The notes: generated by a model from the sequence alone, not told the origin. Positions 793 to 4,874 are shown, numbered from the stretch's first letter. The stretch is 4,874 nt of DNA from a virus (IMGVR_UViG_2700989171_000006); one strand, 5' to 3'. Translations and numbers: made by a program.

Positions 793-2258
793 TGGCACGA
801 AACAAACAAGCCCTGCGGCGAACTGTGCAGGCCACAGCTGATGGTTATGAGAATTTTATTGCCCGAGTAGGGATGCAGACACCTAACCAGCACTCAGCAT
901 CCACCTACCGGGCTAATTTCACCAGTCGTAACCGCATGCTGGTGGAATGGTCCTATCGTTCATCCTGGATCATCGGCGAAGCAGTCGATGCTATCCCGGA
1001 TGATATGACCCGCAAAGGCATTCGCATCACTTCGGAAATTGATGCAAAAGATCGTGGCATTCTCGAATCACAACTGGATGAGTTGCAAATCTGGGATGCG
1101 CTGAATGACGTGCTGAAATGGTCGCGCCTCTACGGCGGCGCGGTGGGTTTCATCATGATTGAGGGGCAGGCACCAATGACCCCGCTGCGACCCGAAACCA
1201 TCGGTAAGGGCAAGTTTAAGGGGATTCTCCCGCTCGACCGCTGGATGGTCGACCCGGCACTGACCCGCCGCATTAAAGATATGGGGCCGGACCTGGGTAA
1301 ACCTGAGTTTTACGATGTGGTGACCACAGCAACGGGAATTCCTGCCTGGCGCATTCATCACAGTCGCCTGATTCGCTTTGATGGCGTCACGTTGCCATTT
1401 CAGCAGAAGATGACCGAGAACGAATGGGGAATGTCGGTTGTAGAGCGTATCTGGGATCGTCTTACCGCGTTCGACAGCGCTACTGTCGGCGCGGCGCAGC
1501 TGGTCTACAAGGCGCATTTGCGTACCTACAGCGTGGAGAAGCTACGCGAGCTTATCGCACTTGGTGGTCCTGCGTATGAAGCGTTGCTGAAGAATATCGA
1601 CCTGATTCGACAGTTCCAGAGTAATGAAGGCATGACGCTCATGGACTCGCGGGATAAGTTTGAAACCCATCAGTACAGCTTCAGTGGTCTGGATGACATC
1701 CTTTCGCAGTTTGCAGAACAGATTAGTGGCGCTGTTGGTATCCCACTGGTGCGGTTGTTCGGACAGTCCCCGAAAGGATTTTCTACCGGTGATGCAGACC
1801 TTGCCAACTATTACGATCGCATCAGTTCGTTGCAGGAGAGGCGTTTACGTCTTCCGGTGCGGCGGATACTGGACATCATGCATCGTTCGGAACTTGGCAA
1901 GCCGCTGCCGGACGATTTCACGTTTGAGTTTAACCCGCTCTGGCAAATGTCTGATGTCGATCGCTCAACGGTGGCGTTAAACACCACCAACGCAATCAGT
2001 ACGGCGATGGGTGATGGTCTGATGACACTGAAAGCCGCTATGACTGATTTGCGAGAAAATTCTGACGTAACCGGCATAGGGGCATCCATTACCAACGAGG
2101 ACATCGAGAATGCCGAAGATGAAGCGCCGCCCGGCATCGGCGAACCTGATGACGAACCGCAGGAGCCGTCAGGCGGAAATCCGGTATCGAACCAGCCTAC
2201 GCAGGATAGCGAGGGCGGTCGGAGACATCGTAAATGGTCGCTACGATGGTTCAAATGA
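792..2258 (+). CDS. Phage portal protein (DUF1073-like family as recalled)
   Basis: 488-aa ORF with GGGGAG 9 nt upstream. Its ATG overlaps the terminase stop (TGATG at 790..794). It sits in the canonical slot between terminase and the MuF-like gene. Size and sequence character fit portal proteins, and it ends in an acidic low-complexity tail (EDEAPPGIGEPDDEPQEPSGG...). The last ~50 codons overlap the next gene. Confidence 0.8.
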   Translation: MARNKQALRRTVQATADGYENFIARVGMQTPNQHSASTYRANFTSRNRMLVEWSYRSSWIIGEAVDAIPDDMTRKGIRITSEIDAKDRGILESQLDELQIWDALNDVLKWSRLYGGAVGFIMIEGQAPMTPLRPETIGKGKFKGILPLDRWMVDPALTRRIKDMGPDLGKPEFYDVVTTATGIPAWRIHHSRLIRFDGVTLPFQQKMTENEWGMSVVERIWDRLTAFDSATVGAAQLVYKAHLRTYSVEKLRELIALGGPAYEALLKNIDLIRQFQSNEGMTLMDSRDKFETHQYSFSGLDDILSQFAEQISGAVGIPLVRLFGQSPKGFSTGDADLANYYDRISSLQERRLRLPVRRILDIMHRSELGKPLPDDFTFEFNPLWQMSDVDRSTVALNTTNAISTAMGDGLMTLKAAMTDLRENSDVTGIGASITNEDIENAEDEAPPGIGEPDDEPQEPSGGNPVSNQPTQDSEGGRRHRKWSLRWFK

Positions 2259-2892
2259 CAGTATCACGGAAATTATTGCGGCGCTGGAGCGTTACAGTGA
2301 AATCATCACCCCCTGGGCGACAAAGGTCGCGGAAAACTTTACTGCGGACCTAACCCGGCAGAACGAGAAAGTTTGGCGGCAACACAGCAAGAACATCAGT
2401 CGCGAGCTCCGCAATCTTGTGGAAAGCGCTCCTGTGGGCCAGGTGATGCAATCCATCATCGCCGAACAGGTCAAGTACATCAAATCTCTGCCTCTCGAGG
2501 CCGCAGACAGGGTGTACGACATCCAGAACAAAGCGATAGAGGCTGTTGTCACCGGTGGTCGGGCGGAGCAGTTTGCTAAAGAGATTGCATCTACCGGCGA
2601 TGTTGCTAAGTCTAGGGCCGATCTGATTGCCCGAACGGAACTGGGAAGAGCAACGGGCGCGCTGGATATGGCCCGAGCGATAGCTATTGGCTCGGATGGT
2701 TATATTTGGCGTACAGCCGATGATGGCGATGTCCGAGATTCCCACGATCACATGAAAGGTAAATTCGTCCGCTGGGATTCACCTCCAACTTTGGACGGCA
2801 TGACCGGCCACGCGGGCGAGCTGCCAAACTGCCGCTGCTATAAAGAGATCGTGTTTGTTCGCGTTCCATTCGCAATGAAAAGGGCAGCATAA
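2110..2892 (+). CDS. Head morphogenesis / minor head protein, MuF (SPP1 gp7) family
   Basis: 260-aa ORF whose C-terminal half carries MuF-type motifs (IARTELGRATG, WRTADDGDVRDSHDHMKGKF, NCRCY). GAGG lies 9 nt upstream of ATG 2110. The start is uncertain (ATG at 2110, 2119 or 2149), and every candidate lies inside the portal ORF. Confidence 0.8.
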   Translation: MPKMKRRPASANLMTNRRSRQAEIRYRTSLRRIARAVGDIVNGRYDGSNDSITEIIAALERYSEIITPWATKVAENFTADLTRQNEKVWRQHSKNISRELRNLVESAPVGQVMQSIIAEQVKYIKSLPLEAADRVYDIQNKAIEAVVTGGRAEQFAKEIASTGDVAKSRADLIARTELGRATGALDMARAIAIGSDGYIWRTADDGDVRDSHDHMKGKFVRWDSPPTLDGMTGHAGELPNCRCYKEIVFVRVPFAMKRAA

Positions 2893-2895
2893 CCC

Positions 2896-4103
2896 ATGAA
2901 ATACTTTTTTGAGACCAGGCTCGGGGAAACCCGATACCGCCTGGCTGACGGCTCGTTGCTGTGCAAAGACGTGCCGATAGGACGAACAGGTAAGCAGCTC
3001 TATGGTGCTGATGACCTGCCAAAACTGAAACCCGATAAGTTCGTTGAAATAGTCGTCACGCGTTCTCCTGAGCAGGTATTCCATCCGGCCACGCTTGCCT
3101 CATTCGAAGGGATGAGCATCACGATCCTGCATCCTGAAGATGAAAACGGGAATGTGCGGCTGGTAAATCCCGAGAACTGGAAAGTGCTTGCTGTCGGGCA
3201 CCTCCAGAATGTCCGGCGCGGGACGGGTGAGCAGTCTGATTTGATGCTGGCTGACCTTATCGTCAAAGACGAAAGCGCCATTCAGCTTATCGAAGATGGC
3301 CTGCGCGAAGTGTCGTGCGGCTATGACGCGGAGTACGAGCAGACCGAGCCAGGTAAAGCCGAGCAGGTCGATATTACCGGAAACCATGTGGCTCTTGTCC
3401 CTAAAGGCAGAGCCGGAAATCGTTGTGCAATTGGAGACAGAGACACAATGGCAAATCAAAAGAAAAACTGGTGGAACCGCATGCGTGCGGCCATCAAGAC
3501 AGGAGATGCCGACACCATGAACGAACTGGTGGAGTCGGCTCCCGCATCGGTTACAGGAGATGAGGGGGATTTGCCGCAGGGCGTTAATCTCAACATCAAC
3601 CTGTCCCCGCAGCAACCACTACCGGACAAAGCACCAGAGATGGGCGGAGATCCAACCGGCGACAGTGATGATGACCTCAAAACATTACTGAAAGCCCTGC
3701 TGGCTAAGCTGGAAAGAAATGCCACGGGCGATAACGATAATAAGCCTGACGATAATCCGACCGGTGACGGCGAGGACGATGAAGAGGAAACCACGATTAC
3801 TGGTGACTCAGCCTGGCGTGCCGAAGTTATCGTTCCGGGTATCGATCTGAGCCGTAAGATGAAACCGACCGCGTTCAAACGCGAGGTTCTGGCTTCCGCT
3901 GACAAAACGCTGGTTCGCCAGATAGTCGGTGATGCGGATATCCGCAAATTACCGAAACAATCGGTCGACATGGCGTTTAATGCCGTGTCTGAGGTTGCCA
4001 AAGGGCGAAACACCCGCGCCACCACCGGCGATGCACAGCGCCTAAACATGGGCATGACCAGTATCGCTTCCCTGAACAAACAAAACGCTGAATTCTGGGC
4101 AAA
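2896..4103 (+). CDS. Large acidic head-assembly protein with a DUF2213-like N-terminal domain; putative prohead protease/scaffold; 3' end hidden by the N-run
   Basis: ATG 2896 lies 3 nt after the MuF stop, and 402 codons are readable before the N-run. The N-terminal ~180 aa resemble DUF2213 phage proteins as recalled. The C-terminal half is acidic and low-complexity with a helical-looking stretch (LKTLLKALLAKLERN). The gene occupies the protease/scaffold slot between the MuF and capsid genes. The ORF-track extension through X residues to the stop at 4240..4242 cannot be interpreted. Confidence 0.7.
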
Positions 4104-4222
4104 NNNNNNNNNNNNNNNNNNNNNNNNNNNNNNNNNNNNNNNNNNNNNNNNNNNNNNNNNNNNNNNNNNNNNNNNNNNNNNNNNNNNNNNNNNNNNNNNN
4201 NNNNNNNNNNNNNNNNNNNNNN
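4104..4222. other. Run of 119 N (masked or unresolved sequence)
   Basis: Directly visible: the N characters start at 4104 and end at 4222. Confidence 0.99.
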
Positions 4223-4529
4223 CTCTCGCCCGCAGGACTTAACCGTCGAACCGGTGGTCCTTAAATCCGATAACGCCTTCGCTGCCTATGGCCTGGCTGG
4301 TAAATACGATGATGACGGTTTTTTCGTGCCGCTGGCAGATGGTGATACCGCAGACAAGGTGAAGGGGATCTACGTGCGCCCTTATCCGACCACGTCGCAG
4401 CCGGACATGGTTCGCCAGGTGGGAACAGGCAAGAACTTCCCGGGCGACGCCATGAAGCGTGGCTACGTGACCGTTAATCTCGGTTCTGATTTTGATGCCA
4501 GCACTATCAAAAAAGGCGATCTCCACTGA
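4223..4529 (+). CDS. Small head-module protein (possible decoration/cement-type protein), 5' end hidden by the N-run
   Basis: The frame is open from the first unmasked base to TGA 4527..4529, with coding-like codon usage (CTG, CCG, GGC, GTG rich). GTG 4254 has no convincing Shine-Dalgarno, so the start is probably inside the masked region. Gly/Asp-rich composition. Location immediately upstream of the capsid gene. The functional label is a guess. Confidence 0.55.
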
Positions 4530-4562
4530 TGAATCCATCAAAGTGCCTCTGGGTGGATTCAT
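4529..4562 (+). other. Inverted repeat / potential RNA hairpin (9-bp stem ATGAATCCA / TGGATTCAT, extendable to 11 bp with one G-U pair)
   Basis: Arms 4529..4537 and 4554..4562 are exact reverse complements. The stem includes the last base of the upstream TGA stop and the first two bases of ATG 4561. No T-run follows. Confidence 0.4.
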
Positions 4563-4662
4563 GTCCACGTCAGTCAGTGGCAAAAACGTGGTGCTGACCA
4601 ACGCTGAATTCACAGGTGCCGGTGATGCTGACGGCAATGCAGAAATTTCCTGGAAGATTTAA
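4561..4662 (+). CDS. 33-codon ORF (MSTSVSGKNVVLTNAEFTGAGDADGNAEISWKI), either a small independent gene or the frameshifted C-terminus of the preceding protein
   Basis: ATG 4561 to TAA 4660..4662. Codon usage is coding-like. The same frame is open back to 4471 and contains an alternative ATG at 4495. The track omits it because of its short length. Confidence 0.3.
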   Translation: MSTSVSGKNVVLTNAEFTGAGDADGNAEISWKI

Positions 4663-4673: not shown

Positions 4674-4874
4674 ATGATTACTTTTGATCAGGCAACCGTT
4701 GACAGCTCTGGTGCCTTTCTCATCGGGGAGCTGGAGAGACTCGACCAGACGCTGAACCTGCCACTGGTGGGGTACACCTGGAGCCGCGATATTCAACTGC
4801 GTGAAGACGCCTCCATCGCAGATGACATTTCCAGCTGGACGAATACCAGCTTCGCCGCTGCGGGTACTGGCGCA
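4674..4874 (+). CDS. Probable major capsid protein, N-terminal 67 codons (runs off the window end)
   Basis: ATG 4674 with a strong SD. The ORF is open to the window end. The N-terminus MITFDQATVDSSGAFLIGELERLDQTLNLPLV... resembles the N-termini of major capsid proteins that follow DUF2213-type genes, as recalled. It sits in the expected slot after the scaffold and small-protein genes. Confidence 0.55.
   Translation, partial: MITFDQATVDSSGAFLIGELERLDQTLNLPLVGYTWSRDIQLREDASIADDISSWTNTSFAAAGTGA

What the first reader, a model, noticed from the sequence alone, without database searches (positions are those of the whole stretch)
3223..4032. Over-represented TGD motif and acidic low-complexity core in the scaffold-like protein
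By eye the translation contains 7 TGD and 1 TGE tripeptides (GTGEQ, KTGDAD, VTGDEGD, PTGDSDDD, ATGDNDN, PTGDGEDDEEE, ITGDSAW, TTGDAQ), far more than composition would predict. The region around 3646..3795 is extremely acidic. Two DNA segments (about 3653..3676 and 3758..3781) are imperfect copies encoding PTGDSDDD and PTGDGEDD, suggesting internal duplication. The motif could mark protease processing sites, cation-binding sites or a capsid-interaction repeat.
Basis: seen in the sequence. Interest (0 to 1): 0.4.

Follow-up and report, generated by a model that had tools for sequence, protein, structure and literature searches.

The report
Protease cut-site motif in phage scaffold
The repeated Thr-Gly-Asp motif is real and conserved, and it most likely marks where a prophage's head-maturation protease, encoded in the first half of the same protein, cuts its own scaffold tail during capsid maturation; this is a known type of mechanism in a protein family still labelled "unknown function".

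Summary
The 406-aa protein (window 2896-4103, then masked) has 7 TGD and 1 TGE against 0.2 expected (0 of 100,000 shuffles). The window is the head module of an E. coli SEN34-like prophage.

The TGDs lie at helix ends and in disordered linkers. Their positions are kept in relatives. Across 131 distant homologs T-x-D is 3.7-fold enriched in the scaffold part, while T-x-E is depleted. Asp is the best conserved residue and a small residue usually follows.

In the related PB1-like phages, published Edman data place the capsid-protein cut at AMD|S. The same tetrapeptide recurs only in the portal and in the DUF2213 protein.

Best reading (about 0.65): TGD is P3-P1 of Asp-specific self-cleavage sites. 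[quoted passage not shown] No cleavage has been shown for this clade. The DNA-level duplication claim is weak. This is a new member of a known kind, of moderate interest.

The parts
2896..4103 (+). Protease-scaffold fusion gene (DUF2213 protein). It is 406 aa in intact relatives. The last 4 codons and the stop are hidden by the N run 4104-4222.
   Evidence: Pfam PF09979 E 2.4e-41. PHROG 1961 E 2.8e-194, and 'head maturation protease' PHROGs 12864 and 530. 99.8% identical to WP_000873147.1 in E. coli FDAARGOS_944.
2896..3450 (+). Predicted prohead serine protease domain (residues 1-185).
3130..3132 (+). His79, candidate catalytic histidine.
   Evidence: Invariant in 115 homologs. Coordinates checked.
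3313..3315 (+). Ser140, candidate nucleophile, in the motif EVSCGYD.
   Evidence: Invariant in 115 homologs. It aligns with the 'LSLGY' motif of PB1 gp22.
3385..3387 (+). His164, possible third catalytic residue, in the motif GNHVALV.
   Evidence: Invariant in 115 homologs. The spacing from S140 resembles the Ser-His-His triad of the assemblins; this comparison is from memory and was not superposed.
3223..3231 (+). TGE at residues 110-112, inside the protease domain. It reads TGD in many relatives. Possible autolysis site or coincidence.
   Evidence: Among close homologs it is TGD, TGE or absent. Only 11 of 115 distant homologs have T-x-D here.
3448..3450 (+). Met185, possible internal start for a protease-less scaffold (residues 185-406).
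   Evidence: 111 of 115 homologs have a Met in the variable linker just after invariant D181. BcepNY3 annotates a nested gene 13' at the equivalent place. This is an inference.
3499..3507 (+). TGD 202-204 (IKTGD|AD), proposed cleavage site 1.
   Evidence: The column has Asp in 105 of 113 homologs, with P3 T (40) or A (38). It lies at the break between helices 192-202 and 205-213.
3553..3561 (+). TGD 220-222 (SVTGD|EG), proposed site 2.
   Evidence: Kept in most close homologs. It sits at the end of helix 217-220, before the disordered stretch 223-257. It is weakly conserved in distant homologs.
3655..3663 (+). TGD 254-256 (DPTGD|SD), proposed site 3, immediately N-terminal of the amphipathic helix.
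   Evidence: The column has Asp in 80 of 110 homologs and T-x-D in 37. It is in a disordered linker before helix 258-274.
3667..3717 (+). Amphipathic Leu-rich helix 258-274 (DDLKTLLKALLAKLERN). Probable counterpart of the Pa193 gp24 'interior helix' that stays under capsid pentons.
   Evidence: AlphaFold2 helix. Its sequence resembles PB1/Pa193 ELISQVKAILARLEG (PMC11456595). The correspondence was made by eye and was not formally aligned.
3724..3732 (+). TGD 277-279 (NATGD|ND), proposed site 4, immediately C-terminal of the helix.
   Evidence: The column has Asp in 88 of 108 homologs and T-x-D in 49.
3760..3768 (+). TGD 289-291 (NPTGD|GE), proposed site 5, in the acidic disordered core.
   Evidence: The column has Asp in 73 of 76 occupied rows and T-x-D in 42. 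pLDDT is below 50.
3646..3795 (+). Acidic low-complexity core (50 aa, 17 D/E, net charge -12).
3799..3807 (+). TGD 302-304 (TITGD|SA), proposed site 6. This is the best conserved site in the family, at the start of the C-terminal helical domain.
   Evidence: Asp in 104 of 107 homologs, P3 Thr in 71, P1' Ser 58 / Ala 31.
3808..4101 (+). C-terminal globular helical domain (residues about 305-402), the probable scaffold or coat/portal-binding core.
4024..4032 (+). TGD 377-379 (ATTGD|AQ), proposed site 7.
   Evidence: A neighbouring column has Asp in 75 of 96 homologs and T-x-D in 40. It falls at the end of helix 354-377, in the low-confidence loop 379-385.
4674..4874 (+). Start of the major capsid protein gene (DUF2184 type; only the first 67 codons lie in the window).
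   Evidence: Identical to L001 7743 onward.
4680..4703 (+). Capsid protein residues 3-10 (TFDQATVD|S): two T-x-D motifs at the N-terminus, a proposed propeptide cleavage.
   Evidence: M-x-T-[FYIV]-D-x-x-T-[VIQL]-D-[SGAN] is present in all 33 loci examined. Longer capsid proteins carry an extension ending TRD or TND just upstream.
834..842 (+). Portal residues 15-17 (ATAD|G), a conserved T-x-D-[S/G] near the portal N-terminus.
   Evidence: 28 of 32 loci keep T-x-D while the middle residue varies.
2199..2207 (+). Portal residues 470-472 (PTQD|S), a conserved site 16 residues from the portal C-terminus, ahead of the basic tail SEGGRRHRKWSLRWFK.
   Evidence: 27 of 32 loci have [T/V]-x-D-S.

Best explanation
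The gene encodes a fused prohead protease and scaffold.

**Shown.**
- Residues 1-185 have the fold of the T4 gp21 / herpesvirus assemblin capsid-maturation proteases. His79, Ser140 and His164 are invariant.
- The rest of the protein is helical and acidic.
- The TGD tripeptides sit at helix ends and in disordered linkers, at positions conserved across the family.

**Inferred.**
- The protein, and probably a protease-less version started at Met185, co-assembles with the capsid protein and the portal into a procapsid.
- The protease domain then cuts after Asp in T-x-D (P3 Thr, P1 Asp, small or acidic P1').
- Cutting at the seven TGDs would chop the scaffold part into peptides of 1.3-8.2 kDa that can leave the shell or remain as internal peptides.
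- One product would be a 23-residue amphipathic helix (residues 257-279). It appears homologous to the piece of Pa193 gp24 that stays under the capsid pentons.
- The same enzyme would trim about 10 residues from the capsid-protein N-terminus (TVD|S) and clip both ends of the portal.
- Gly at the middle position is a habit of this enterobacterial clade. Other clades use K, R, A or V there. PB1-like and Bcep781-like phages use Ala at P3 (AMD|S).
For: **Protease identity.**
- Pfam DUF2213 and PHROGs annotated 'head maturation protease'.
- 13 invariant columns in 115 sequences, including H79, S140 and H164.
- Confident AlphaFold2 model.

**The motif is non-random and conserved.**
- 7 TGD against 0.2 expected.
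- The positions are kept in 120 close homologs. TGD residues are 96% identical against 76% for the surrounding linker.
- In the C-terminal parts of 131 distant homologs, T.D is 799 observed against 215 expected. It is the top gapped pair.
- T.E (0.63x), S.D and D.T are not enriched.
- 8-9 homologous columns carry (T>A>V/S)-x-D-(S/A/E), with Asp the most conserved residue.

**Accessibility.** All seven TGDs fall at helix boundaries or in segments with pLDDT below 50.

**Experimental anchor in the same protein family.**
- PB1 gp22 matches the family profile at 97.8% probability, E 9e-13.
- Edman sequencing of the KPP12 capsid protein gives SNFTAPVTTPS. That places the cut at ...SAMD64|S65 (PMC3474789; sequence).
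- The E217 and Pa193 capsid-protein models start at residue 66.
- AMDS occurs 3 times in 6,315 aa of PB1 structural proteins, against 0.07 expected. The three are that cut site, portal residues 74-77 (the Pa193 portal lacks its first 93 residues) and the DUF2213 protein itself.
- BcepNY3 has AMD[SA] in its capsid-protein N-terminal region and twice in its DUF2213 protein.

**Substrate set in this clade.**
- The capsid-protein N-terminal T-x-D pair is present in 33 of 33 loci, and N-extensions end in TRD or TND.
- Portal N- and C-terminal T-x-D-S sites are conserved while P2 varies.
- T.D enrichment by protein: 3.4x in DUF2213, 2.4x in the capsid protein, 2.2x in MuF, but 0.24-1.2x in tail proteins.
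Against: - No cleavage product has been observed for this phage clade. The only direct cut site (AMD|S) comes from PB1-like phages, which have Ala rather than Thr at P3 and only one T-x-D in their scaffold.
- Catalytic activity of a DUF2213 domain has never been shown. There is no sequence-level link to T4 gp21 (hhalign probability 0.2%) and Foldseek against the PDB found nothing.
- Three of the seven TGDs immediately precede helices, so a helix-capping role could explain part of the conservation.
- Related sequences are not independent, so the enrichment ratios overstate the number of independent events.
- TGD also occurs inside the conserved cores of the portal (residue 332) and MuF (residue 149), where cleavage seems unlikely. 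The tripeptide alone cannot therefore be sufficient.
- In Pa193 the equivalent of site 254-256 lies inside the ordered helix-turn-helix.
Confidence: 0.65

Rival explanations
1. T-x-D is a structural punctuation motif, a helix N-cap or linker element that sets helix boundaries in the scaffold. It is not cut.
For: TGD 202, 254 and 302 sit directly before helices 205-213, 258-274 and 304-312 in the model. Thr and Asp are common helix N-cap residues (general knowledge).
Against: Four of the seven TGDs follow helices or lie in long disordered segments. The same motif recurs at the extreme N-terminus of the capsid protein and at both portal ends. Glu does not substitute for Asp (T.E 0.63x), although Glu caps helices well. 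The homologous system cuts after Asp.
Confidence: 0.15
2. The TGD-plus-acidic units are short linear motifs that dock the scaffold onto basic patches inside the capsid shell or on the portal (a capsid-interaction repeat), independent of proteolysis.
For: Pa193 gp24 contacts the capsid interior through an acidic turn and salt bridges (PMC11456595). The core is strongly acidic, net charge -12. The portal C-terminal tail is basic.
Against: The Pa193 contact uses the EMSGE turn, not a T-x-D. The residues following the motif vary widely (A, E, S, N, G), while only Thr(i) and Asp(i+2) are fixed. This reading does not explain T-x-D at the N-terminus of the capsid protein itself.
Confidence: 0.1
3. 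The TGD/acidic clusters bind divalent cations (a resemblance to TGD/GDGxND-type metal sites).
For: Only the local abundance of Asp and a superficial likeness of ATGDNDN to metal-binding loops (from memory).
Against: There is no fold around most motifs (pLDDT below 50) and no Pfam or NCBIfam metal-binding match. Several TGDs (202, 302, 377) have no acidic neighbours.
Confidence: 0.03
4. The motif is a by-product of composition or of recent internal duplication and has no function.
For: A weak 18-nt similarity between 3657-3674 and 3762-3779. Module duplications exist in P0001 and P0003.
Against: Shuffle tests. There is no DNA repeat beyond what the codons force. The motif is conserved at homologous positions down to 33% identity, while the flanking residues drift.
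Confidence: 0.02

Closest known systems
Pseudomonas phage Pa193 gp24 / PB1 gp22 (Pbunavirus 'putative scaffolding protein'; residues 286-326 built in PDB 9B40)
   Same: Both are DUF2213 proteins in the same gene position, between the MuF-like protein and the cement and capsid proteins. The PB1 N-domain matches the family profile at 97.8% and keeps the His / SxGY / GNHxALV motifs. Both have an acidic middle part with a Leu-rich amphipathic helix. The capsid protein is cut after Asp (AMD|S), and the same tetrapeptide lies in the scaffold and the portal.
   Different: PB1 uses Ala rather than Thr at P3 and has a single T-x-D. Its capsid protein has a 64-residue propeptide, against about 10 residues here. 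The Pa193 authors describe gp24 only as a scaffold and never as a protease ('protease' occurs 0 times in the paper).
Bacteriophage T4 gp21 prohead protease with its substrates gp22, gp23 and others
   Different: There is no detectable sequence similarity. In T4 the protease and the main scaffold are separate genes. P1 is Glu and P3 is Leu/Ile in T4, against Asp and Thr here.
Herpesvirus assemblin-scaffold polyprotein (UL26 / UL80 type)
   Different: Assemblins cut at Ala|Ser at two sites only. The hosts are eukaryotic. The triad equivalence here is inferred from spacing and was not superposed.
Burkholderia phage BcepNY3/Bcep781 gp13 and nested gp13' (annotated 'head maturation protease')
   Same: It carries the DUF2213 domain and lies between MuF and the minor-head and capsid proteins. 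A nested internal-start product is annotated just after the protease domain. AMD[SA] occurs in both the capsid-protein N-terminal region and the scaffold part.
   Different: P3 is Ala. The middle part is rich in Ala, Pro and Gly rather than built from TGD-acidic units. I could not read the original paper.

Membership tests
Pfam DUF2213 (PF09979) | Match to the family HMM above the gathering score. | tested here: met
   141.9 bits against a cut-off of 22, E 2.4e-41, residues 16-181 covering profile positions 4-166 of 167.
Assemblin / T4 gp21-fold capsid maturation serine proteases | Characteristic fold of the protease domain. | tested here: met
Assemblin / T4 gp21-fold capsid maturation serine proteases | Conserved catalytic Ser and His at structurally equivalent positions. 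| tested here: inconclusive
   H79, S140 and H164 are invariant in 115 sequences and their order and spacing fit. I could not superpose them on T4 H85/S140 because no coordinates were available.
Assemblin / T4 gp21-fold capsid maturation serine proteases | Sequence-level membership in a curated protease family (Pfam S77, S78 or S80). | tested here: not met
   No Pfam hit other than DUF2213, even at E up to 10. hhalign against T4 gp21 gives probability 0.2%. No NCBIfam hit.
Assemblin / T4 gp21-fold capsid maturation serine proteases | Demonstrated proteolytic activity on head proteins. | not testable with these tools
   The evidence is indirect only: the Edman-defined cut AMD|S in the capsid protein of KPP12, a PB1-like phage whose only candidate protease is the DUF2213 protein.
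Protease-scaffold fusions with a nested scaffold product (lambda C/Nu3, herpes UL26/UL26.5, BcepNY3 13/13') | Protease domain followed in the same frame by a helical scaffold part; gene placed between the portal/MuF genes and the capsid protein gene. | tested here: met
   Gene order. Helical C-terminal part.
Protease-scaffold fusions with a nested scaffold product (lambda C/Nu3, herpes UL26/UL26.5, BcepNY3 13/13') | In-frame internal translation start that yields the scaffold alone. | tested here: inconclusive
   Met185 lies just after the domain. 111 of 115 homologs have a Met in that linker. There is only a weak Shine-Dalgarno-like GGAGA/GAGA upstream, and no expression data.
Multi-site scaffold degradation motif (T4 L/I-x-E type) | [quoted passage not shown] | tested here: met
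   7 sites in the scaffold, 2 at the capsid-protein N-terminus, 2 at the portal termini. Tail tube 0.24x, DUF4054 0.45x, sheath 1.14x.
Multi-site scaffold degradation motif (T4 L/I-x-E type) | Peptide bonds actually cleaved at the motif. | not testable with these tools
   This needs mass spectrometry or Edman sequencing of particles from this phage clade.

The most novel reading that the evidence does not exclude
DUF2213 proteins would form a large, uncharacterised branch of assemblin-fold capsid proteases (over 6,000 clusters at 50% identity). They would share an Asp-specific code, (T/A/V)-x-D|(S/A), that can be read straight from sequence. That code would predict the mature ends of the capsid protein, the portal and the scaffold in many myophages, including therapeutic Pbunaviruses. 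In this clade it would also release a 23-residue amphipathic helix (residues 257-279) that stays as a pentameric plug under capsid vertices, together with acidic internal peptides.
Probability: 0.3. Interest if true: 0.5.

Novelty: new member of a known kind. Interest (0 to 1): 0.35.

Why it matters
- **A testable function for an unknown-function family.** It would give a cleavage rule to a very common phage and prophage protein. The family has 6,189 representative clusters in the 1.84-billion-protein library and is present in 339 of 5,426 complete E. coli genomes.
- **It would tie together loose ends in recent cryo-EM papers.**
  - The missing first 65 residues of the E217 and Pa193 capsid proteins.
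  - The missing first 93 residues of the Pa193 portal.
  - The isolated gp24 fragment under the Pa193 pentons.
  - The Pa193 paper never mentions a protease. The XM1 authors state that their phage's scaffold gene is still unidentified and propose an unrelated Spartan-like protein as the protease. I did not obtain that phage's genome, so whether it encodes a DUF2213 protein is unknown.
- **Practical uses.**
  - Knowing the mature ends helps model building and capsid engineering.
  - Protease specificity has become relevant to immunity, because a 2026 preprint reports that CBASS sensors are triggered by prohead-protease cleavage.

Tried and rejected
- **Sequence search of the PDB** with the whole protein found no hit at E up to 10. 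The Pa193 gp24 entry was not found this way.
- **hhalign of the family profile against T4 gp21** gave no signal.
- **Pfam and NCBIfam** on the C-terminal half and on the whole protein gave nothing beyond DUF2213.
- **Phage XM1.** I tried to use it as a second structural anchor. GenBank PP580404 ('vB_VpaM_XM1') turned out to be a different, lambda-like phage with a ClpP protease. The structure paper gives no genome accession. The XM1 capsid protein did not appear in a PDB sequence search with our capsid protein; only Pam3 8hdt_A did. This line was dropped.
- **Papers not available.** The Bcep781 paper (PMC1317576) is not held. The Pa193 supplementary proteomics tables are not held. Literature searches for DUF2213 and DUF2184 found only annotation mentions.
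- **DNA-level duplication.** The repeat finder and TRF gave only an 18-nt, 72% pair. I rejected this as evidence for a duplication in this window.
- **Helix-capping as the sole explanation.** Rejected because four of the seven sites do not precede helices.

Full report
**Context**

The 4,874-nt window is the head-morphogenesis module of an enterobacterial myophage or prophage. It is 99.8% identical to a prophage of E. coli FDAARGOS_944 and 85% identical to Salmonella phage SEN34 (Brunovirus). A 100% match exists in IMG/VR (L004).

The gene order is as follows:
- C-terminal end of the large terminase (32-571);
- portal, PF06381 (792-2258);
- Mu-F-like head morphogenesis protein (to 2892);
- the protein in question (2896 onward);
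- a cement protein of the E217 gp24 / Pam3 gp6 / XM1 gp53 type;
- the start of a DUF2184 major capsid protein (4674 onward).

The listed ORF 2896-4242 runs through a block of N (4104-4222). In intact relatives the protein is 406 aa and ends four codons after window position 4103.

Yes. Composition predicts 0.20 TGD. None of 100,000 shuffles reached seven, and none of 20,000 shuffles gave any tripeptide seven times.

The 50 residues encoded by 3646-3795 carry 17 D/E and a net charge of -12.

The claimed DNA copies are weak. There is no tandem repeat. That is about what coding PTGD plus acidic residues twice would give. Clear 39-40-residue module duplications do exist in some relatives (P0003, P0001).

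**What the protein is**

Residues 16-181 match Pfam DUF2213 (E 2.4e-41). The whole protein matches PHROG 1961, and at lower scores it matches PHROGs annotated as head maturation protease.

An alignment with 114 homologs at 33-91% identity has 13 invariant columns, among them His79, Ser140 (EVSCGYD) and His164 (GNHVALV).

AlphaFold2 with that alignment gives a confident N-domain (pLDDT above 90) and a confident C-terminal helical domain (about 300-402). Helices and disordered linkers lie between them.

There is no sequence-level link to T4 gp21, and Foldseek against the PDB was blank. The protease assignment therefore rests on the fold and the invariant His/Ser. The protein is best described as a protease-scaffold fusion, not just a scaffold.

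**The motif across the family**

In 120 close homologs the TGDs stay at the same positions. TGD residues are 96% identical, against 76% for the other residues of 187-301.

The exhaustive HMMER search found 6,189 clusters at 50% identity. In those distant members TGD itself varies in number. Other clades have TKD, TRD, TVD or TAD as their most frequent tripeptide.

In the C-terminal parts of 131 distant homologs:
- T.D occurs 799 times against 215 expected (3.7x) and is the top gapped pair.
- T with a gap of 0, 2 or 3 before D is not enriched.
- T.E (0.63x), S.D, A.D and D.T are not enriched.

About eight or nine alignment columns carry the motif in a large share of sequences. Asp is the most conserved residue, for example 104/107 at the column of D304 and 105/113 at the column of D204. 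P3 is T, then A, then V or S. The residue after Asp is mostly S, A or E.

In the model every TGD lies at a helix boundary or in a segment with pLDDT below 50.

**An experimental anchor**

PB1-like Pseudomonas phages have a DUF2213 protein (PB1 gp22, Pa193 gp24) in the same gene position. Its N-domain matches the family profile at 97.8% probability.

The KPP12 paper reports the Edman N-terminus of the major capsid protein as SNFTAPVTTPS (PMC3474789). This places the maturation cut at ...SAMD64|S65. The E217 and Pa193 capsid-protein models start at residue 66.

In 6,315 residues of PB1 structural proteins the tetrapeptide AMDS occurs three times, against 0.07 expected:
- at that cut site;
- at portal residues 74-77 (the Pa193 portal lacks its first 93 residues in both the map and LC-MS);
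- at residues 411-414 of the DUF2213 protein itself.

BcepNY3 shows the same pattern with AMD[SA], and its annotation has a nested gene 13' after the protease domain.

So in this family a head protease cuts after Asp with a small P1', and the DUF2213 protein carries the same sites. The Pa193 authors saw residues 286-326 of gp24 as a helix-turn-helix under the pentons and could not tell whether gp24 is cleaved.

**Other substrates in this clade**

- **Capsid protein.** In all 33 loci examined (33-100% identity) it begins M-x-T-[FYIV]-D-x-x-T-[VIQL]-D-[SGAN]-x-G-x-F-L. Longer versions have an N-extension that ends in TRD or TND exactly where the short ones begin.
- **Portal.** It keeps T-x-D-[S/G] at residues 15-17 in 28 of 32 loci. 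It keeps [T/V]-x-D-S sixteen residues from its C-terminus in 27 of 32 loci. The middle residue varies freely at both sites.
- **Enrichment by protein.** T.D is enriched in DUF2213 (3.4x), the capsid protein (2.4x), MuF (2.2x) and cement (2.0x). It is not enriched in the terminase, sheath, tube or tail chaperone (0.24-1.2x). These counts come from related sequences and are not independent events.

**Proposed mechanism**

Shown: the fold, the invariant residues, the positions and conservation of the motif, and the Asp-specific cut in PB1-like phages.

Inferred:
- The fusion protein co-assembles into the procapsid.
- Its protease domain cuts after Asp in T-x-D.
- The scaffold part is reduced to pieces of 1.3-8.2 kDa. 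One of them is a 23-residue amphipathic helix (257-279) that resembles the Pa193 interior helix.
- The capsid protein loses about 10 residues and the portal loses both tips.
- A protease-less scaffold may also be made from Met185. A Met in that linker is present in 111 of 115 homologs.

I put this at about 0.65.

The main rival is a purely structural helix-capping or linker role (0.15). It fits three of the seven sites but does not explain the termini of the capsid protein and the portal, or the exclusion of Glu. A docking-motif role (0.10) and cation binding (0.03) have little specific support. Compositional drift is contradicted.

**Comparison with what is known, and novelty**

It works like T4 gp21 with gp22 and gp23: a short motif with an acidic P1 and a defined P3, repeated in the scaffold and present at the capsid-protein N-terminus. 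It also works like the herpesvirus assemblin-scaffold polyprotein: a fused protease, self-cleavage and a nested scaffold.

It is a member of DUF2213 and, by fold, of the assemblin/gp21 superfamily. It is not a member of any curated protease sequence family.

The library I could search contains no description of a T-x-D or x-x-D| code for this family, and I found only annotation mentions of DUF2213. PHROGs and some GenBank records already call these proteins head maturation proteases.

I therefore rate it a new member of a known kind, with moderate interest (0.35). The finding is ordinary in mechanism but gives a concrete, testable rule for a widespread protein of 'unknown function'.

Noticed in passing
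window 4104-4222: The run of 119 N stands for only 66 nt in the near-identical loci L001 and L004, so it does not preserve length. It hides the last 4 codons and stop of the DUF2213 gene and the start of the cement gene.
   Followed up: yes
window 4519/4520 (cement gene, about 4223-4662): A 17-nt deletion relative to the intact gene in L001 (7572-7588) frameshifts the cement/decoration gene, splitting it into ORFs 4254-4529 and 4492-4662. The IMG/VR contig L004 has the same deletion. It could be a decaying prophage or one shared assembly.
   Followed up: partly
window 2199-2258 (portal C-terminus): The portal ends in an acidic, Pro-rich stretch, then a conserved T-x-D-S, then a strongly basic 16-residue tail (SEGGRRHRKWSLRWFK). 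This looks like a removable tail that could bind the acidic scaffold or DNA.
   Followed up: partly
window 3448-3450: Met185 lies in the variable linker just after invariant Asp181. A Met occurs there in 111 of 115 homologs, and BcepNY3 annotates a nested gene 13' at the equivalent place. This suggests an internal start that makes a protease-less scaffold.
   Followed up: partly
window 3436-3438: Asp181 is invariant at the very end of the protease domain, in the context A-I-G-D|R. It could be a further cleavage site that separates the protease from the scaffold.
   Followed up: no
window 2110-2258: The portal gene and the longest ORF of the Mu-F-like gene overlap by about 110-150 nt in different frames. 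RefSeq starts the Mu-F-like gene at the position corresponding to window 2149 (L001 5254). The SEN34 annotation starts it only after the portal stop, so the true start is uncertain.
   Followed up: no
proteins P0003 and P0001: Some Enterobacter and E. coli variants carry an exact tandem duplication of a 39-40-residue module (PTGD-acidic-LKTLLKALLAKLE-NATGD-acidic), giving 9-10 TGDs. The helix-plus-sites unit therefore behaves as a duplicable module.
   Followed up: partly
proteins P0002 and P0012: Two 576-aa predicted proteins fuse the DUF2213 protein with the cement protein domains (PF22758, PF23982). This is presumably loss of the stop codon, which is separated from the cement start by only a few bases.
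   Followed up: no
L003 (PB1) 1112-3421, 5133-6569, 7218-8366: The tetrapeptide AMDS occurs only in the portal (residues 74-77), the DUF2213 protein (411-414) and the capsid protein (62-65, the Edman-verified cut). The annotated PB1 gp22 start is probably 13 codons too short compared with the 478-aa Pa193 gp24.
   Followed up: yes
L084 (PP580404): GenBank 'Vibrio phage vB_VpaM_XM1' has a lambda-like head module (ClpP-type protease, gpE-type capsid protein). It is not the XM1 of the 2023 cryo-EM paper, despite the shared name.
   Followed up: partly
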